Part shown: positions 1 through 11,471 of the stretch, piece by piece | How the letters are laid out: every line of letters begins with the position of its first letter | Numbering within the stretch: position 1 is the first letter of the stretch | Virus record (IMG/VR): IMGVR_UViG_2617270973_000006 | Span: 1-11,777 of that record | Length of the DNA: 11,777 nt | Direction: 5' to 3' (one strand) | DNA from: a virus | Lineage: Duplodnaviria; Heunggongvirae; Uroviricota; Caudoviricetes | Notes under the pieces: generated by a model | The model's database searches: none | The model's input: the letters and a program-made list of their open reading frames with translations, nothing else | What the model was told of the DNA's origin: nothing | Translations under genes and position numbers: made by a program

Positions 1-156
1 TTGCTTGCGCCAGAGAAATAACTGGCTGGCTGCCACACCGTGTTGCCGGGCAACAAGGGAGACCGTCATTCCCGGTTCAAAACTCTGCTGAACAATAGCG
101 ATCTTTTCCTGTGTAGTACGCCGTCTGCGTTTCTCCGGTCCTAAGACATCAATCAT
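1..156 (-). CDS. insC: IS2 transposase OrfA (InsC), N-terminal 52 codons only; CDS runs off the window start
   Basis: Minus-strand ATG at 156-154 translates to [52 protein letters not shown], matching the IS2 OrfA N-terminus as I recall it. Not in the ORF track because it is truncated by the window edge. Confidence 0.85.
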
Positions 157-247
157 CTGCTCTCCAATGACTAGTCTAAAAACTAGTATTAAGACTATCA
201 CTTATTTAAGTGATATTGGTTGTCTGGAGATTCAGGGGGCCAGTCTA
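1..247 (-). mobile_element. IS2 insertion sequence, left end (partial; continues beyond window start)
   Basis: Reverse complement of 171-247 reads TAGACTGGCCCCCTGAATCTCCAGACAACCAATATCACTTAAATAAGTGATAGTCTTAATACTAGTTTTTAGACTAG, which I recognise as the IS2 left terminal inverted repeat and leader; the element terminus (TAGACTG) falls at 241-247. Followed inward by the InsC start. From memory, no search run. Confidence 0.85.
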
Positions 248-5379: not shown

Positions 5380-5605
5380 ATTTTGCGGGTCCTTTCCGGC
5401 GATCCGACAGGTTACGGGGCGGCGACCTCGCGGGTTTTCGCTATTTATGAAAATTTTCCGGTTTAAGGCATTTCCGTTCTTCTTCGTCGTAACTTAATGT
5501 TTTTATTTAAAATACCCCCTGAAAAGAAAGGAAACGACAGGTGCTGAAAACGAGCTTTTGGGCCTCTGTCGTTTCCTTTCTCTGTTTTTGGCCGTGGAAT
5601 GAACA
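5380..5605 (+). other. Lambda-type cos packaging site (cosQ-cosN-cosB region) between the right-end genes and Nu1
   Basis: 5370-5416 matches the lambda right end (...GATGATAATCATTATCA...GGGTCCTTTCCGG.GATCCGACAGGTTACG) and 5417 onward matches the lambda left end (GGGCGGCGACCTCGCGGGTTTTCGCTATTTATGAAAATTTTCCGGTTTAAGGC...), up to the Nu1 start. From memory of the lambda sequence. Confidence 0.85.
5417..5428 (+). other. cosN: 12-nt cohesive-end sequence GGGCGGCGACCT (terminase nicking site)
   Basis: Exact match to the lambda 12-nt 5' overhang, flanked by lambda-like right-end and left-end sequence. Confidence 0.85.
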
Positions 5606-6130
5606 ATGGAAGTCAACAAAAAGCAGCTGGCTGACATTTTCGGTGCGAGTATCCGTACCATTCAGAACTGGCAGGAACAGGGAATGCCCGTTCTGCGAGG
5701 CGGTGGCAAGGGTAATGAGGTGCTTTATGACTCTGCCGCCGTTATAAGATGGTATGCCGAAAGGGATGCTGAAATTGAGAACGAAAAGCTGCGCCGGGAA
5801 GTTGAAGAACTGCGGCAGGCCAGCGAGACAGATCTCCAGCCAGGGACTATTGAGTACGAACGCCATCGACTTACGCGTGCGCAGGCCGACGCACAGGAGC
5901 TGAAAAATGCCAGAGACTCCGCTGAAGTGGTGGAAACCGCATTCTGTACTTTCGTGCTGTCGCGGATCGCAGGTGAAATTGCCAGTATTCTCGACGGGAT
6001 CCCCCTGTCGGTGCAGCGGCGTTTTCCGGAACTGGAAAACCGACATGTTGATTTCCTGAAACGGGATATCATCAAAGCCATGAACAAAGCAGCCGCGCTG
6101 GATGAACTGATACCTGACCACGCAGCGTAA
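5606..6130 (+). pseudogene. nu1: Terminase small subunit Nu1, C-terminally truncated by a deletion junction (about 170 lambda-like codons plus 4 novel codons, then stop)
   Basis: MEVNKKQLADIFGASIRTIQNWQEQGMPVLRGGGKGNEVLYDSAAVI... is near-identical to lambda gpNu1 through ...[14 protein letters not shown], then diverges (DHAA*) where the lambda protein continues into the gpA-interaction tail. The N-terminal winged-HTH cosB-binding domain is intact. Confidence 0.85.
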
Positions 6131-6140
6131 GGCGTGGGAT

Positions 6141-8609
6141 GTGCTCAGTGATTTCTGCTCGGCGATGCGCTGTATGCCGGTATGGAACGGGCAGACGCTG
6201 ACGTTCGTGCAGGACCGACCATCAGATAAGGTGTGGACCTATAACCGCAGTAATGTGGTGATGCCGGATGATGGCGCGCCGTTCCGCTACAGCTTCAGCG
6301 CCCTGAAGGACCGCCATAATGCCGTTGAGGTGAACTGGATTGACCCGAACAACGGCTGGGAGACGGCGACAGAGCTTGTTGAAGATACGCAGGCCATTGC
6401 CCGTTACGGTCGTAATGTCACGAAGATGGATGCCTTTGGCTGTACCAGCCGGGGGCAGGCACACCGCGCCGGGCTGTGGCTGATTAAAACGGAACTGCTG
6501 GAGACGCAGACCGTGGATTTCAGCGTGGGTGCTGAAGGGCTTCGCCATGTACCGGGCGATGTCATTGAAATCTGCGATGATGACTATGCCGGTATCAGCA
6601 CCGGTGGTCGCGTGCTGGCGGTGAACAGCCAGACCCGGACGCTGACGCTCGACCGTGAAATCACGCTGCCATCCTCCGGTACCACGCTGATAAGCCTGGT
6701 TGACGGAAGTGGTAATCCGGTCAGCGTGGAGGTTCAGTCCGTCACCGACGGACTTAAGGTGAAAGTGAACCGGGTTCCTGATGGCGTTGCAGAATACAGT
6801 GTGTGGGGGCTGAAGTTGCCGACGTTGCGTCAGCGCCTGTTCCGCTGTGTGAGTATCCGTGAGAACGATGACGGCACGTATGCCATCACTGCCGTGCAGC
6901 ATGTACCGGAAAAAGAAGCCATCGTGGATAACGGGGCGCACTTTGACGGCGACCAGAGCAGCACGGTGAATGGTGTCACGCCGCCAGCGGTGCAGCACCT
7001 GACCGCCGAAGTCACCGCAGACAGCGGGGAATATCAGGTGCTGGCGCGCTGGGACACGCCGAAGGTGGTGAAGGGCGTGAGCTTCCTGCTCCGTCTGACC
7101 GTAACAGCGGATGACAGCAGTGAGCGGCTGGTCAGCACGGCCCGGACGACGGAAACCACATACCGCTTCACGCAACTGGCGCTGGGGAACTACAGGCTGA
7201 CAGTCCGGGCGGTAAATGCGTGGGGGCAGCAGGGCGATCCGGCGTCGGTATCGTTCCGGATTGCCGCACCGGCAGCACCGTCGAGGATTGAGCTGACGCC
7301 GGGCTATTTTCAGATAACCGCCACGCCGCATCTTGCCGTTTATGACCCGACGGTACAGTTTGAGTTCTGGTTCTCGGAAAAGCGGATTACCGATATCAGG
7401 CAGGTTGAAACCACAGCACGCTATCTTGGCACGGCGCTGTACTGGATAGCCGCCAGTCTCAATATCAAACCGGGCCATGATTATTACTTTTATATCCGCA
7501 GTGTGAACACCGTTGGCAAATCGGCATTCGTGGAGGCTGTTGGTCAGCCGAGTGATGATGCATCCGGTTATCTGGATTTTTTCAAAGGCGAGATAGGGAA
7601 AACCCATCTGGCTCAGGAGCTGTGGACGCAGATTGATAACGGTCAGCTTGCGCCTGACCTGGCTGAAATCAGGACGTCCATTACGGATGTCAGCAATGAA
7701 ATCACGCAGACCGTCAATAAGAAACTGGAAGACCAGAGTGCGGCAATTCAGCAGATACAGAAGGTTCAGGTTGATACAAATAATAACCTGAACAGCATGT
7801 GGGCTGTGAAGCTGCAGCAGATGCAGGACGGACGCCTTTATATCGCGGGTATTGGTGCCGGTATTGAGAACACCCCTGACGGCATGCAGAGTCAGGTGCT
7901 GCTGGCGGCAGACAGGATTGCGATGATTAATCCTGCGAATGGCAACACAAAGCCGATGTTTGTTGGGCAGGGCGATCAGATATTCATGAACGAAGTGTTC
8001 CTGAAACGCCTGACGGCTCCCACCATTACCAGCGGCGGTAATCCTCCGGTATTTTCCCTGACACCGGACGGGCGGCTGACGGCGAAAAATGCCGATATCA
8101 GCGGTAACGTGAATGCGAACTCCGGGACGCTCAACAACGTCACGATTAACGAGAACTGTCGGGTTCTGGGAAAACTGTCCGCCAACCAGATTGAAGGCGA
8201 TCTCGTTAAAACAGTGGGCAAAGCTTTCCCCCGGGACTCCCGTGCACCGGAACGGTGGCCATCAGGGACCATCACCGTCAGGGTTTATGACGATCAGCCG
8301 TTTGACCGGCAGATTGTTATTCCGGCGGTGGCATTCAGCGGCGCTAAACATGAGCGGGAGAATAACGATATTTATTCGTCATACCGCCTGATAGTACGGA
8401 AAAACGGTGCTGAAATTTATAACCGTACCGCGCTGGATAATACGCTGATTTACAGTGGTGTTATTGATATGCCTGCCGGTCACGGTCACATGACACTGGA
8501 GTTTTCGGTGTCAGCATGGCTGGTAAATAACTGGTATCCCACAGCAAGTATCAGCGATTTGCTGGTTGTGGTGATGAAGAAAGCCACTGCAGGCATCACG
8601 ATTAGCTGA
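6141..8609 (+). pseudogene. J: Tail-tip / host-specificity protein J, 5'-truncated fragment (C-terminal roughly 820 codons of an about 1130-codon gene) fused downstream of the Nu1 remnant
   Basis: Track ORF begins at a GTG. Product ...[24 protein letters not shown]...[20 protein letters not shown]... is collinear with lambda gpJ from about residue 310 onward; no J N-terminus and no RBS. The same frame is open back to a stop at 6108-6110. The central and C-terminal receptor-binding parts diverge from lambda J. Confidence 0.85.
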
Positions 8610-8676: not shown

Positions 8677-9276
8677 ATGCGTAAATTATGTGCTGTTATT
8701 TTGTCCGCAGCCATCTGTCTGTCCGTATCCGGTGCGCCTGCATGGGCGTCTGAACATCAGTCCACACTGAGCGCAGGGTATCTTCATGCCCGTACGAACG
8801 CTCCCGGCAGCGATAATCTGAACGGGATTAACGTGAAATACCGTTATGAGTTTACGGACACGCTGGGGCTGATTACGTCCTTCAGTTATGCCAATGCTGA
8901 GGATGAGCAAAAAACGCACTACAGCGATACCCGCTGGCATGAAGATTCCGTGCGTAACCGCTGGTTCAGCGTGATGGCAGGGCCGTCTGTGCGCGTGAAT
9001 GAATGGTTCAGCGCGTATGCGATAGCGGGTATGGCTTACAGCCGTGTGTCGACCTTCTCCGGGGATTATCTCCGCGTAACTGACAACAAGGGGAAAACGC
9101 ACGATGTGCTGACCGGAAGTGATGACGGTCGCCACAGCAACATGTCTCTGGCGTGGGGGGCTGGCGTGCAGTTTAACCCGACCGAATCCGTGGCCATTGA
9201 TATTGCTTATGAAGGCTCCGGCAGTGGTGACTGGCGCACTGCCGGTTTCATCGTGGGTGTCGGTTATAAGTTCTGA
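8677..9276 (+). CDS. lom: Lom-like outer-membrane beta-barrel protein (Ail/Lom/PagC family), 199 aa
   Basis: Signal peptide MRKLCAVILSAAICLSVSGAPAWA; the C-terminal half (GINVKYRYE...SVMAGP...AYEGSGSGDWRTAGFIVGVGYKF) matches lambda Lom almost exactly as I recall it; RBS GAGAGG upstream; sits after J as in lambda. Confidence 0.9.
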   Translation: MRKLCAVILSAAICLSVSGAPAWASEHQSTLSAGYLHARTNAPGSDNLNGINVKYRYEFTDTLGLITSFSYANAEDEQKTHYSDTRWHEDSVRNRWFSVMAGPSVRVNEWFSAYAIAGMAYSRVSTFSGDYLRVTDNKGKTHDVLTGSDDGRHSNMSLAWGAGVQFNPTESVAIDIAYEGSGSGDWRTAGFIVGVGYKF

Positions 9277-9340: not shown

Positions 9341-9820
9341 ATGGCAGTACGGATTTCAGGTGTACTGAAAGATGGCGCAGGTAAGCCGATACAAAACTGC
9401 ACCATTCAGCTAAAGGCCAGGCGCAACAGCACCACGGTGGTGGTGAACACAGTGGCCTCAGAAAACCCGGATGAAGCCGGGCGTTACAGCATGGACGTTG
9501 AGTACGGTCAGTACAGCGTTATTCTGTTGGTGGAAGGATTCCCGCCGTCACATGCCGGGATCATCACCGTGTATGAAGATTCCCAACCCGGTACGCTGAA
9601 TGATTTTCTCGGTGCCATGACGGAGGATGATGCCCGTCCTGAGGCACTGCGCCGTTTTGAACTGATGGTGGAAGAGGTGGCGCGTAACGCGTCCGCAGTG
9701 GCACAGAACACGGCAGCCGCGAAGAAGTCAGCCGGCGATGCCGGCACATCTGCCCGTGAGGCGGCAATCCGCGGCAACGCGTGCCGAAACAGCGGCAAAA
9801 CGGGCAGAGGATATTGCTGA
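9341..9820 (+). pseudogene. stf: Side tail fibre (Stf), N-terminal fragment; reading frame lost near 9775-9795
   Basis: MAVRISGVLKDGAGKPIQNCTIQLKARRNSTTVVVNTV...FELMVEEVARNASAVAQ is collinear with the lambda Stf N-terminus for about 143 residues, then reads an unrelated tail (RGNACRNSGKTGRGYC*) while Stf homology continues in another frame. Confidence 0.75.
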
Positions 9821-11471
9821 TGCCGTATCTCTGGAAGATGCGAGTACGACGAAAAAAGGTGTGGTTCAGCTTAGTAGTGCAACCAACAGCACGTCTGAAA
9901 CGCAGGCTGCAACGCCGAAAGCAGTAAAGGCAGCATATGACCTTGCTAACGCAAAATATACCGCTCAGGACGCAACGACGGCACGAAAAGGGATAGTTCA
10001 GCTCAGTAGCGCCACTAACAGCCCGTCTGAAACGCTGGCTGCGACACCAAAAGCGGTTAAGGCGGTAATGGATGAAACGAACAAGAAAGCGCCCTTAAAT
10101 AGTCCTGCACTGACCGGAACGCCAACAACGCCAACTGCGCCAAAAGGTACTAATAATACTCAGATCGCAAGTACGGCTTATGTGATGGCCGCGATTGCCG
10201 CCCTTGTAGACTCGTCGCCTGACGCACTGAATACGCTGAACGAGTTAGCGGCGGCGCTGGGCAACGACCCGAATTTTGCGACCACCATGACTAACGCGCT
10301 TGCGGGTAAGCAACCGAAAGATGCCACCCTGACGGCGCTGGCCGGGCTTGCTACTGCGGCAGACAGGTTTCCGTATTTTACGGGGAATGATGTCGCCAGC
10401 CTGGCAACCCTGACAAAAGTCGGGCGGGATATTCTTGCGAAATCGACCGTTGCTGCCGTTATCGAATACCTCGGTTTACAGGAAACGGTAAACAGGGCCA
10501 GGAACGCCGTGCAAAAGAATGGCGATACCTTGTCCGGTGGGCTTACTTTTGAAAACGACTCAATCCTTGCCTGGATTAGAAATACTGACTGGGCAAAGAT
10601 TGGTTTTAAAAATAATGCCGACAGCGACACTGATTCATACATGTGGTTTGAAACAGGCGACAACGGCAATGAATATTTCAAATGGAGAAGCCGCCAGAGC
10701 ACCACAACAAAAGACCTGATGACTCTTAAATGGGATGCTTTGTCTGTCCTTGTTAAAGCCCTTTTCAGCAGTGAAGTAAAAATATCGACAGTCAATGCAC
10801 TGAGGATATTTAATTCATCTTTTGGTGCTATTTTTTGTCGTTCTGAAGAATGCCTGCATATCATCCCTACACGAGAGAATGAGGGAGAAAATGGTGATAT
10901 AGGGCCACTACGCCCCTTTACGCTTAATCTCAGAACTGGTCGGATAAGCATGGGGCATGGTCTTGATGTTACAGGGGATATATTTGCAAACCGTTTTGCA
11001 ATTAACAGTAGTACCGGCATGTGGATTCATATGCGTGACCAGAATGTTATTTTGGGACGCAATGCGGTATCCACCGATGGTGCGCAGGCATTACTTCGTC
11101 AGGACCACGCTGATCGCAAATTTATGATTGGTGGACTGGGGAATAAGCAATTTGGCATCTACATGATTAATAACTCAAGGACAGCCAATGGCACCGATGG
11201 TCAGGCGTACATGGACAACAATGGCAACTGGCTTTGCGGTGCGCAAGTTATTCCCGGCAATTATGGTAATTTTGACTCACGTTATGTGAGAGATGTCCGA
11301 CTTGGTACACGTGTTGTTCAGACTATGCAAAAAGGCGTGATGTATGAGAAATCAGGTCATGCAATTACGGGGCTTGGCATTATCGGTGCAGTTGATGGCG
11401 ATGATCCGGCAGTATTCAGACCAATACAAAAATACATCAATGGCACATGGTATAACGTCGTACAGGTGTAA
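9738..11471 (+). pseudogene. stf: Side tail fibre (Stf), distal portion in a +1-shifted frame; includes the conserved fibre motif and a non-lambda C-terminal domain
   Basis: From about 9768 this frame reads ...AAKRAEDIADAVSLEDASTTKKGVVQLSSATNSTSETQAATPKAVK...NTLNELAAALGNDPNFATTMTNALAGKQPKDATLTALAGL..., collinear with lambda Stf after its Ala/Ser-rich repeat region; the last roughly 300 residues are unlike lambda (no His-rich GAHAH repeats). The first about 10 codons (MPAHLPVRRQ) are out-of-frame sequence. Confidence 0.7.
9852..10064 (+). repeat. Diverged tandem duplication (period about 132 nt) of the conserved tail-fibre motif K-G-[IV]-V-Q-L-S-S-A-T-N-S-x-S-E-T-x-A-A-T-P-K-A-V-K
   Basis: Copy 1 about 9852-9938 (KKGVVQLSSATNSTSETQAATPKAVKA) and copy 2 about 9984-10064 (RKGIVQLSSATNSPSETLAATPKAVKA); by eye roughly 80 percent nucleotide identity. 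Lambda Stf has a single copy, as I recall. Confidence 0.7.

What the first reader, a model, noticed from the sequence alone, without database searches (positions are those of the whole stretch)
6095..6165. Nu1-to-J deletion junction: whole head and tail gene block is missing
Lambda-like Nu1 homology ends at ...ALDELIP (about 6115) and within about 40 nt lambda-like J homology begins at roughly J residue 310. In lambda this interval holds A, W, B, C, nu3, D, E, FI, FII, Z, U, V, G, T, H, M, L, K, I and the 5' third of J. The prophage therefore cannot make terminase large subunit, capsid or tail, yet keeps the lysis cassette, porin, lom and cos. The junction is clean enough that the deletion mechanism (microhomology versus site-specific) could be read from it.
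Basis: partly seen in the sequence, partly recalled or inferred. Interest (0 to 1): 0.55.

Follow-up and report, generated by a model that had tools for sequence, protein, structure and literature searches.

The report
Recurrent prophage deletion joint in nu1
The junction is real: a crippled lambda-like prophage joins its small terminase gene directly to the last two thirds of the tail-tip gene. The break in the terminase gene falls on one TA dinucleotide that dozens of other natural E. coli prophage deletions also use, so it looks like a targeted cut rather than a random accident.

Summary
Confirmed, with corrections. Window 5417-6114 matches lambda 1-699 (cos plus Nu1 codons 1-170). Window 6111-7626 matches lambda 16486-18002, so J starts at codon 328, not about 310. 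The joint is seamless, with a 4-nt overlap TACC (6111-6114) and no 40-nt gap. Relative to lambda, 15,790 bp are missing (A through I plus J codons 1-327).

The nearly identical prophage in E. coli F1005 sits at att-lambda, spans about 23 kb, and has no head or tail genes anywhere. The same joint occurs in 3 of 5,426 complete genomes, so it is not an assembly artefact.

The unexpected result is that the Nu1 breakpoint is not private. About 46 different downstream sequences are joined right after the same base, lambda A697. They include sites in A, B, C, E, FI, Z, I, J, lom, stf and tfa, and one in chromosomal nfrB. One of these is the E. coli B DLP12 joint, which keeps 348 bp more of J.

- 28 of 33 mapped partner sites carry TA at the joint.
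- Partner sites fit a palindrome, C-N-G-N-TA-N-C-N-G, which the Nu1 site (CTGATACCGG) also fits.
- No mirror-image joints exist.
- Other deletions in the same prophages show ordinary G/C microhomology.

The prophage interpretation is supported. The deletion mechanism looks site-preferring with a 2-bp crossover. The enzyme responsible is unidentified.

The parts
5417..5605 (+). cos region: cosN 12-nt cohesive end GGGCGGCGACCT at 5417-5428, followed by cosB up to the Nu1 start
   Evidence: Window 5417-6114 aligns with lambda 1-699 at 97.9%. Sequence read.
5606..6130 (+). Truncated small terminase gene Nu1' (174 aa): Nu1 residues 1-170, then DHAA and a stop read from J-derived sequence. It lacks the last 11 residues of Nu1.
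   Evidence: ORF list. 167/170 identical to lambda Nu1. The exact protein is on 94 public contigs. Pfam PF07471 is recorded for its cluster.
6107..6116 (+). Hybrid recombination site CTGATA|CCTG. The left half is the Nu1 hot-spot site (lambda 692-697, wild type CTGATACCGG). The right half comes from J (lambda 16488 onward).
   Evidence: The site fits the partner-site consensus C-N-G-N-T-A-N-C-N-G at +2 C and +4 G.
6111..6114 (+). Junction overlap TACC, shared by lambda 696-699 (Nu1) and 16486-16489 (J codons 328-329). The TA at 6111-6112 is the dinucleotide common to nearly all joints of this family.
   Evidence: Overlapping BLASTN alignments, sequences, coordinates, TA statistics.
6111..8609 (+). 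Promoterless, start-less 3' fragment of the tail-tip gene J (codons 328 to end). It stays open for 832 codons and is in the +1 frame relative to Nu1. Its receptor-binding C-terminus diverges from lambda J.
   Evidence: BLASTP against lambda J, 77% identity overall and about 98% over the first 480 residues. RefSeq marks the same stretch in F1005 as 'phage tail tip protein, missing N-terminus'.
8677..9276 (+). lom (Ail/Lom outer-membrane protein), retained downstream of the J fragment
   Evidence: ORF. RefSeq annotation of the identical F1005 gene.

Best explanation
Shown. The feature is the internal deletion joint of a defective lambdoid prophage integrated at att-lambda. Nu1 codon 169/170 (lambda A697 to C699) is joined without filler to J codon 328 (lambda 16486/16488). 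This removes 15.8 kb that encode the large terminase subunit, the whole head, the tail shaft and the N-terminal third of J.

Also shown. The Nu1 end of the joint is a recurrent breakpoint. About 46 different downstream sequences in natural E. coli prophages are joined immediately after the same base.
- Nearly all partner sites carry TA exactly at the joint.
- Partner sites share a TA-centred palindromic consensus (C-N-G-N-T-A-N-C-N-G) that the Nu1 site itself fits.
- All events delete rightward.
- No joint has the mirror-image fixed end.

Inferred. This joint was made by a breakage-and-rejoining reaction with a 2-bp (TA) crossover between the Nu1 site and a look-alike secondary site in J. The reaction behaves like a dyad-symmetric recombinase or transposase acting on a preferred site and pseudo-sites, not like random microhomology joining. 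The enzyme is not identified.

Not resolved. The event may have started from an intact prophage, or from the E. coli B DLP12-type joint (same Nu1 base, J codon 212) through a second 348-bp step.
For: Joint and coordinates.

Whole-prophage context without morphogenesis genes.

Same joint in F1005, AH21 and F3_13_1_3, all at att-lambda, with chromosomal flanks of F1005 and AH21 0.2-0.4% diverged. Also found in a metagenome contig and an IMG/VR contig.

Recurrence:
- Among Nu1-like proteins of 93% identity or more, 44, 11 and 5 stop matching Nu1 at residues 169, 170 and 168. Any other position in codons 139-176 has 1-3 proteins.
- There are 45 distinct 8-residue tails, about 38 distinct sites after merging allelic variants of the same partner (my count).
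- Eight further partner sites appeared in the IMG/VR scans. With the two new sites at 2246 and 15806 and the types already known, about 12 joint types are now seen directly as DNA, all reading ...GAACTGATA|.
- About 309 of 5,942 Nu1 3' ends in complete genomes lack the intact site.

TA and microhomology:
- 22 of the first 26 mapped partners have TA (p = 4e-23).
- The microhomology length distribution has a sharp step at exactly 2 nt and shows no gain from longer matches.
- 4 of 5 new IMG/VR partners, and the Z/U partner, also have TA.

Palindromic partner preferences, compared with all 649 TA sites of lambda 721-22600: -6 C in 17/27 (p = 2e-4), +2 C in 17/27 (p = 8e-4), +4 G in 20/27 (p = 2e-6). 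Codon phase does not explain these.

Asymmetry: 17 left-fixed joints versus 0 right-fixed joints, among at least 120 wild-type sites in IMG/VR.

Internal control: other deletion and inversion joints in the same prophages use GGG or GGAC microhomology and no TA.
Against: - No enzyme is identified, and no element (IS, integrase gene, satellite) sits at any joint.
- The flank consensus was found post hoc in 27 sites. The independent replicate set has only 5 sites (3/5, 2/5, 2/5 and 3/5 matches).
- About 5 of 33 partners lack TA in the reference allele used.
- A palindromic TA core should also allow inversions, and none was seen.
- For this particular joint the left half of the J partner site (TGCGTA) does not fit the consensus. 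Only the TA and the right half do.
- The protein survey over-samples in-frame fusions and counts cluster representatives, not events.
- Some joints may be nested derivatives of others rather than independent events.
Confidence: 0.55

Rival explanations
1. One ordinary, random illegitimate deletion. A break or replication slip anywhere in the late region was sealed at a chance 4-nt microhomology (TACC) between Nu1 and J. The deletion was then inherited vertically.
For: A 4-nt overlap at the joint, with p of about 0.016 by chance. Other joints in these prophages are of this kind: GGG and GGAC microhomology and scattered Nu1 breakpoints at codons 139-176. K-12 DLP12 has an independent A-to-tfa deletion.
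Against: It cannot explain about 46 different partners joined after the same base. It also cannot explain the step at exactly 2 nt, the partner-site consensus on the side that is not retained, or the total left/right asymmetry.
Confidence: 0.08
2. Two-step history. The first deletion was the E. coli B DLP12-type joint (Nu1 A697/C699 to J codon 212, 15,442 bp). This window's joint arose from it by a second, in-frame 348-bp deletion between the imperfect direct repeats TACCCGAACACG (at the first joint) and TACCTGACCACG (J codon 328). The segment reached an att-lambda prophage by homologous exchange between prophages.
For: The Nu1 base is identical in both joints, and the difference is exactly 348 bp, or 116 codons. 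The repeats match at 10 of 12 positions and are the best match to the joint 12-mer in the REL606 J fragment. The chance of 6 or more matches in the 8 bases after TACC is 0.004. The 700 nt upstream and 239 nt downstream of the joint are identical between the window and REL606. F1005 carries DLP12 cargo (emrE, ybcK, ybcN, rusA, quuD) in its att-lambda prophage while its argU site is empty, so such exchange has happened.
Against: Since the Nu1 base is a general hot spot, sharing it no longer argues for descent. All R-type copies examined are at argU, and all W-type copies are at att-lambda. The AH21-type W joint differs from REL606 at +11, +17, +110, +113 and +237. An intact phage (IdasGreatGrand) carries the window's J allele at 99.9%, and another (PhiR42_1) carries its cos-Nu1 at 99.9%. 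A one-step origin from an intact phage is therefore equally possible.
Confidence: 0.3
3. A fixed DNA 3' end rather than a recombinase. A site-specific nick or replication stall leaves the top strand ending at lambda A697. This end then primes or ligates on any downstream site offering 2 or more terminal matched bases (template switching or alternative end joining).
For: The last retained Nu1 base is A697 in nearly all joints. The base after the joint matches C698 only at about chance frequency (7 of 26). All partners lie downstream in the same orientation. There are no right-fixed joints.
Against: It does not predict base preferences at +2 and +4 of the partner, which lie beyond the primer terminus, or their symmetry with -6 and -4. 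There is no hairpin or unusual structure at the site (z = 0.13). No known nicking site was recognised: the pseudo-cosN alignment is offset by 2 nt, and the nearby Chi-like octamer matches only 6 of 8 (own reasoning from the sequence).
Confidence: 0.2
4. IS-mediated adjacent deletion. A TA-duplicating insertion sequence (IS630 family, or IS30 with 2-bp duplications) once sat at the Nu1 TA, transposed intramolecularly into downstream TA targets, and was later lost by precise excision.
For: The pattern is formally what such elements produce: a fixed end, a TA at every target, and a symmetric target consensus. IS30 makes 2-bp duplications and has near-palindromic hot spots (PMC9333248).
Against: No IS is present at any of about 46 joints or at the wild-type site. 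The lambda IS30 hot spot is at 33244-33498 and does not resemble the motif. The ISEc8 in Sakai Sp4 nu1 is mid-gene in a different Nu1 family. Precise loss in every lineage is implausible.
Confidence: 0.05

Closest known systems
Cryptic lambdoid prophage DLP12 of E. coli (K-12 nohD region, and the E. coli B/REL606 version)
   Same: The late-region layout is the same: quuD, nmpC-type porin, essD-rrrD-rzpD lysis genes, ylcI, cos, a Nu1 homologue, then tail-fibre remnants. The REL606 version has a Nu1-to-J joint at the very same Nu1 base. DLP12 R, Rz, cos and nu1 are functional and recombine with infecting lambda (PMC3945230).
   Different: This prophage sits at att-lambda with a lambda-type int/xis, not at argU with intD. 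Its J fragment starts 116 codons later than in REL606. K-12 DLP12 keeps a full Nu1 plus an A fragment and joins to tfa.
Int-promoted deletions of lambda that run from att to secondary sites, and Cin/Gin-type recombination at quasi-sites (recalled from the classical literature, not re-read here)
   Same: One fixed endpoint at a preferred site, many variable partner sites that resemble it, a short obligatory identical core at the crossover, and events in cis.
   Different: The fixed site lies inside nu1, not at att or a cix/gix site. The core is the 2-bp TA, not the 7-bp Int overlap. The centre of the invertase sites (AAACC-NN-GGTTT, recalled) does not resemble C-N-G-N-TA-N-C-N-G. No recombinase is assigned.
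TA-specific transposition (IS630/Tc1-mariner family) and IS-mediated adjacent deletions
   Same: A TA dinucleotide at every target, a symmetric target consensus, and a one-sided deletion series from a fixed end.
   Different: No transposable element is present at the joints or at the wild-type site.
Microhomology-mediated illegitimate recombination (alternative end joining or slipped mispairing) during prophage decay
   Same: A seamless joint with a few shared bases and loss of morphogenesis genes, as at other joints in the same prophages.
   Different: This breakpoint recurs at single-base precision. It has a threshold at exactly 2 nt and sequence preferences on the non-retained side.

Membership tests
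Defective (cryptic) lambdoid prophage | Integrated between att-flanking host genes with a phage integrase at one end | tested here: met
   In F1005, AH21 and F3_13_1_3 the element lies between ybhC and ybhB-bioA, with a tyrosine integrase and excisionase next to ybhC.
Defective (cryptic) lambdoid prophage | Lacks genes essential for particle production | tested here: met
   No A, portal, protease, capsid, tail tube, tape measure or tip-assembly genes anywhere in the 23-kb element. 15,790 bp of lambda are missing at the joint.
Defective (cryptic) lambdoid prophage | Retains recognisable lambdoid modules in lambda order | tested here: met
   quuD, porin, S/R/Rz, cos, Nu1', J', lom, stf and tfa in lambda order.
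DLP12 proper | Integration at argU with intD | tested here: not met
   The element is at att-lambda. In F1005 argU directly abuts envY, with no prophage there.
Random microhomology-mediated deletion | Breakpoints unconstrained apart from a few shared bases; different events use different endpoints | tested here: not met
   60 of about 104 variant Nu1 proteins, with about 38 distinct tails, break at residues 168-170. There are 17 left-fixed and 0 right-fixed joints in IMG/VR.
Serine-recombinase-type site-specific recombination at secondary sites | Crossover at an identical 2-bp core in both partners | tested here: met
   TA at the joint in 28 of 33 mapped partners. Products keep Nu1 bases through A697 and partner bases from +1 on, as a 2-bp stagger predicts.
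Serine-recombinase-type site-specific recombination at secondary sites | Dyad-symmetric sites recognised on both sides of the core | tested here: inconclusive
   -6 C, +2 C and +4 G are enriched and mutually symmetric (p = 2e-4 to 2e-6). -4 G reaches only p = 0.07. The sample is 27 sites and the pattern was found post hoc.
Serine-recombinase-type site-specific recombination at secondary sites | A cognate recombinase encoded nearby or in the host | tested here: inconclusive
   ybcK (a recombinase-family gene) and a Pin-like remnant are present in F1005. ybcK is absent from AH21. No link to the site was shown.
IS630/Tc1-type or IS30-type transposition | Element present, flanked by the duplicated target dinucleotide | tested here: not met
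   No IS at any joint or at wild-type sites. The IS30 lambda hot spot is elsewhere and looks different.
Gyrase-mediated illegitimate recombination | 4-bp staggered exchange, with products switching at -1/+1 or +4/+5 of the stagger | tested here: not met
   Products always carry the Nu1 base at -3 and the partner base at +1 (for example ATA|ACC at the Z partner ATTA|ACC). Neither product of a 4-bp stagger would look like this (own reasoning).
CRISPR-Cas3 self-targeting deletion (type I-E) | Protospacer with an AAG/ATG/AGG/GAG PAM placed so that Cas3 degrades toward the deleted side | tested here: not met
   The bottom-strand trinucleotides 7-11 nt to the right of the break are GCA, AGC, CAG, TCA and CTC (read from the sequence). 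Single-base precision is also not expected of Cas3.
Assembly artefact | Joint unique to one assembly | tested here: not met
   Present in three complete genomes from France, Canada and the USA, plus metagenome and IMG/VR contigs.

The most novel reading that the evidence does not exclude
A single TA in the 3' end of lambda-type nu1 (lambda 696-697, 14 nt upstream of the A start) is the preferred site of a so far unrecognised 2-bp-crossover recombination activity. The activity could be encoded by the host, a prophage or a mobile element. It repeatedly deletes rightward from nu1 to look-alike TA sites, removing the large-terminase start and variable amounts of head and tail genes. If so, it is a dedicated or at least systematic route by which E. 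coli lambdoid prophages are grounded while cos, the lysis genes and the cargo genes are kept.
Probability: 0.35. Interest if true: 0.85.

Novelty: new variant of a known kind. Interest (0 to 1): 0.62.

Why it matters
Taken alone, the joint is routine prophage decay. It shows that this att-lambda element cannot package or build particles, while it keeps cos, Nu1', the lysis genes, a porin, lom and a long open J fragment. DLP12's R, Rz, cos and nu1 are known to be picked up by infecting lambdoid phages through recombination (PMC3945230).

The recurrence changes the picture. If one TA in nu1 is the fixed end of dozens of natural deletions, then loss of the packaging and morphogenesis block in E. 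coli lambdoid prophages is partly channelled by a specific DNA transaction rather than by random erosion. That bears on how prophages become domesticated and on why 'noh' (Nu1-homologue) remnants next to cos are so common. It also raises the question of whether a host or rival element actively disarms prophages. The idea can be tested directly with deletion-selection experiments and site mutants.

Tried and rejected
- **Assembly artefact.** Rejected: the joint is in three complete genomes plus other contigs.
- **Head/tail block elsewhere in the prophage.** Rejected by the full F1005 annotation.
- **Mosaic (homology) boundary at lambda 697 among intact phages.** Rejected: every intact phage with lambda-type Nu1 aligns straight through into A.
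- **DNA hairpin or unusual structure at the site.** Rejected: z = 0.13.
- **IS30.** Its lambda hot spot lies at 33244-33498 and does not fit the motif.
- **ISEc8 in nu1 of O157 Sakai Sp4.** It is mid-gene, in a different Nu1 family.
- **IS at the joints.** The unmapped partners are tail-fibre alleles, not IS ends.
- **Gyrase 4-bp stagger, a pseudo-cosN nick (2 nt off), a Chi-like octamer (6 of 8 matches, wrong distance), type I-E CRISPR PAMs, Int, Cre and invertase core similarity.** None fits. These checks rest on reasoning from the sequence and on recalled consensus sequences.
- **Codon-phase bias as the source of the partner motif.** Rejected.
- **'Same Nu1 base means W descends from R'.** This was my working conclusion until. 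It was weakened once the base proved to be a general hot spot.
- **GTDB species representatives.** No hit for the exact joint, nor for any non-wild-type base after TACC.
- **Studier 2009 paper on E. coli B versus K-12.** Not held in the library.
- **Search with the diverged allele P0133.** It added one more hot-spot partner (Z/U) but was uninformative about sequence dependence, because its C-terminal part is identical.
Full report
**1. The observation**

BLASTN of the window against lambda gives two collinear blocks. Window 5417-6114 matches lambda 1-699 at 97.9% and covers cosN, cosB and Nu1. Window 6111-7626 matches lambda 16486-18002 at 94.9% and lies in J. The blocks overlap by four bases, TACC (window 6111-6114), which occur at lambda 696-699 and at 16486-16489.

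- Nu1 residues 1-170 are 98% identical to lambda Nu1. The frame then reads DHAA and stops at 6128-6130.
- The 832 codons from 6111 align with lambda J residues 328-1131 without a stop.
- J therefore begins at codon 328, not about 310, and there is no 40-nt spacer.
- J is in the +1 frame relative to Nu1, so no fusion protein is made.
- 15,790 bp of lambda are missing: A, W, B, C/nu3, D, E, FI, FII, Z, U, V, G, T, H, M, L, K, I and J codons 1-327.

**2. Context**

From base 248 on, the window is 99.97% identical to a prophage of E. coli F1005. That element lies at att-lambda, between ybhC and ybhB-bioA. It starts with a lambda-type int/xis, is about 23 kb long, and has no morphogenesis genes anywhere.

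The element keeps quuD, a 365-aa porin, essD/rrrD/Rz, cos, Nu1', J', lom and decayed stf/tfa genes. It also carries cargo typical of DLP12 (emrE, ybcK, ybcN, rusA), while the argU site of F1005 is empty.

**3. Distribution**

- The exact joint is in 3 of 5,426 complete E. coli genomes: F1005 (France), AH21 (Canada) and F3_13_1_3 (USA, bovine). All three are at att-lambda.
- The chromosomal flanks of F1005 and AH21 differ by 0.2-0.4%.
- The AH21 version has two SNPs just right of the joint. One removes the stop, giving a 181-aa Nu1'.
- The two Nu1' proteins are on 94 and 73 public contigs.
- One metagenome contig and one IMG/VR contig also carry the joint.

The deletion is therefore inherited and real, but it is rare and not fixed.

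**4. A sister joint**

E. coli B (REL606, BL21), strain C, ATCC 8739 and others carry a Nu1-to-J joint in DLP12 at argU. It uses the same Nu1 base but J codon 212, so it keeps 348 bp (116 codons) more of J. It is present in 65 complete genomes and 844 contigs.

In that version the joint reads TACCCGAACACG, and 348 bp downstream lies TACCTGACCACG. These match at 10 of 12 positions. The window's joint could therefore be a second, nested deletion.

Flanks are partly consistent with this. The 700 nt to the left and 239 nt to the right are identical between the window and REL606. Beyond that J diverges by about 5%, and the AH21 version differs within 11 nt of the joint.

K-12 DLP12 has yet another joint, from an A fragment to tfa.

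**5. The Nu1 breakpoint is recurrent**

Members of the Nu1' protein clusters showed many different C-terminal tails, all diverging after ...AALDELI(P). A database search gave the following counts among E. coli-type Nu1 proteins: 44, 11 and 5 proteins stop matching Nu1 at residues 169, 170 and 168. Any other position in codons 139-176 has only 1-3 proteins. The listing is complete for breaks from about residue 140 onward.

There are 45 distinct tails, about 38 partner sites after merging allelic variants (my count). Mapped back to DNA, the partners lie in A (lambda 737, 2179), B (2996, 3028, 3468), C, E, FI, Z (8065, 8516), K, I, J (16140, 16488, 17231, 17306, 18143), lom (two sites), several stf and tfa alleles, an integrase gene, and chromosomal nfrB. 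All are on the same strand and to the right of Nu1.

IMG/VR pattern scans added eight more partner sites, including lambda 2246, 2489, 15806 and 17971. With the types already known, about 12 joint types are now seen directly as DNA, each reading ...GAACTGATA|.

In complete genomes, 5,942 copies of lambda 638-697 exist, but only 5,633 copies of the spanning 60-mer 668-727. About 5% of Nu1 3' ends are therefore broken at or near this site.

The same Nu1-Z joint occurs in two different prophage backgrounds.

**6. Signature of the events**

- **Last retained base.** It is A697 in nearly all joints. The next base matches wild-type C698 only at about chance frequency (7 of 26).
- **TA at the joint.** 22 of the first 26 mapped partners have TA immediately left of the joint (p = 4e-23). 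4 of 5 new IMG/VR partners and the Z/U partner do too.
- **Microhomology lengths.** The counts for lengths 0, 1, 2, 3, 4 and 6 nt are 1, 3, 15, 4, 2 and 1. This is a step at exactly 2 nt. Among TA sites the -3 position matches at chance (7 of 22).
- **Flanking preferences.** Compared with all 649 TA sites of lambda 721-22600, partners are enriched for C at -6 (17/27, p = 2e-4), C at +2 (17/27, p = 8e-4) and G at +4 (20/27, p = 2e-6), with a trend for G at -4 (14/27, p = 0.07). The other positions are at background. This is the palindrome C-N-G-N-T-A-N-C-N-G. The Nu1 site CTGATACCGG fits it at every constrained position.
- **Codon phase.** It does not explain the preferences. Events follow the background phase distribution, and no phase reaches the observed frequencies.
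- **Asymmetry.** IMG/VR holds 17 left-fixed joints and no joint with a non-wild-type base before CCGGGGTTGCTG..., among at least 120 wild-type sites.
- **Controls.** Other joints in the same prophages use GGG or GGAC microhomology with no TA. The scattered Nu1 breakpoints elsewhere sit in T or A runs or after CTG.

**7. Reading of the mechanism (inference)**

Three features point to a dyad-symmetric breakage-rejoining activity with a 2-bp stagger. The dinucleotide is obligatory. Longer homology brings no benefit. There are symmetric preferences on the side of the partner that is not retained.

This is the geometry of serine recombinases, and formally also of TA-duplicating transposases. The activity would act between a preferred site in nu1 and pseudo-sites in cis. 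The pattern resembles Int-promoted lambda deletions from att to secondary sites (recalled from the classical literature).

I could not name the enzyme. Section 11 of this report (tried and rejected) lists the candidates I tested: a mosaic boundary, a hairpin, IS30, ISEc8, an IS at the joints, a 4-bp gyrase stagger, a pseudo-cosN nick, a Chi-like octamer and type I-E PAMs.

A fixed 3' end at A697 that primes on 2-nt terminal matches remains possible, but it does not predict the +2 and +4 preferences. The absence of inversion products, despite a palindromic core, counts against a simple recombinase model.

**8. History of this joint**

Because the Nu1 base is a general hot spot, sharing it with the E. 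coli B joint no longer proves descent. There are two candidate routes.

- **One step from an intact phage.** Intact phages exist that carry the window's cos-Nu1 allele (PhiR42_1, 99.9%) and its J allele (IdasGreatGrand, 99.9%).
- **Two steps through the R-type hybrid site.** That site keeps C at +2 and G at +4.

I put the two-step route at about 0.3.

**9. Consequences for the element**

Shown: there is no large terminase, capsid or tail. cosN is identical to lambda's and cosB is retained. Nu1' lacks its last 11 residues.

From established knowledge of lambda terminase (recalled, not tested here), the C-terminal part of gpNu1 binds gpA, so Nu1' should bind cosB but not recruit gpA.

J', lom and the tail-fibre remnants now lie directly downstream of the lysis genes and Nu1' in the late transcription unit. 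In the window's source genome the late antiterminator gene quuD is itself cut by an IS (window 1-247).

In K-12 DLP12 the equivalent R, Rz, cos and nu1 are functional and recombine with infecting lambda at high frequency, stimulated by cos cutting (PMC3945230).

**10. Limits**

- The protein survey counts 90%-identity cluster representatives and over-samples in-frame fusions.
- Partner flanks were taken from reference alleles, which may explain some non-TA cases.
- The flank motif was found post hoc, and the independent replicate has only five sites.
- Events may be partly nested rather than independent.
- No experiment was possible.

**11. Tried and rejected**

- Mosaic boundary at lambda 697 in intact phages: every intact phage aligns through into A.
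- Hairpin at the site: z = 0.13.
- IS30: its lambda hot spot is at 33244-33498 and looks different.
- ISEc8 in Sakai Sp4 nu1: mid-gene, in another Nu1 family.
- An IS at the joints: none found.
- A 4-bp gyrase stagger: the products have the wrong structure.
- A pseudo-cosN nick (2 nt off), a Chi-like octamer (6 of 8 matches) and type I-E PAMs: none fits (reasoning from the sequence).

Noticed in passing
window 1-247 (and 248-309): The first 247 bases are the end of an IS3-family element. They are 100% identical to an IS in AH21 and 95% identical to IS2, and they are absent from F1005. The IS interrupts the 3' end of the late antiterminator gene quuD about 62 nt before its stop. The source genome is therefore a fourth carrier of the joint, and its late operon probably lacks its antiterminator.
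   Followed up: partly
L001 (F1005) 8906-14270 and L009 24492-24614: The att-lambda prophage of F1005 carries genes normally found in DLP12 at argU (emrE, ylcJ, ybcK, ybcN, ninE, ybcO, rusA, ylcG, quuD). Its argU site is empty, and appY and ompT are also absent there. This implies wholesale exchange between prophages at different attachment sites.
   Followed up: partly
L004/L005 20039-20046 (AH21-type joint), equivalent to window 6122 and 6128: In AH21 and F3_13_1_3 a T-to-C change 17 nt right of the joint turns the TAA that ends Nu1' into CAA. The ORF is then 181 aa, the length of wild-type Nu1, and RefSeq names it nohD.
   Followed up: no
lambda 698-757 versus 668-727 in complete E. coli genomes: 5,633 copies of the 60-mer spanning the Nu1 site exist, but only 4,771 copies of the next 60-mer. 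About 860 copies therefore diverge or break between roughly lambda 728 and 757, just inside A. This could be a second common breakpoint or an allele boundary.
   Followed up: no
window 6111-8609: The start-less J fragment stays open for 832 codons, and its first 480 residues are about 98% identical to lambda J despite about 5% nucleotide divergence. The REL606 fragment (949 codons) is also open. This could reflect recent origin, gene conversion from intact phages, or selection. The alternatives were not separated.
   Followed up: no
Nu1 codons 139-141, 144 and 165 (window about 6020-6040 and 6098-6100): There are minor clusters of Nu1 breakpoints, each with about three different partners. They sit in a T run (CGTTTTCC), an A run (GGAAAACC) and after CTG, and show ordinary microhomology. 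GAACTG precedes both the main hot spot (GAACTGATA|) and the codon-144 cluster (GAACTGGAA|) at the same offset.
   Followed up: partly
L013 10750-11200; L012 18130-18200; L004 21470-21560: Further rearrangements occur in related prophages. One is an inverted V fragment between Z' and a tail-fibre gene, with joints at GGG and at CCGGTA|. Another is an internal J deletion at GGAC. A third is a J-to-lom deletion in AH21.
   Followed up: partly
window 9341-11471: The side tail-fibre gene is split into two overlapping ORFs (9341-9820 and 9738-11471). RefSeq marks the F1005 copy as frameshifted and truncated. A 65-aa remnant of a Pin-like recombinase lies further right in F1005 (L001 26566-26760).
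   Followed up: no
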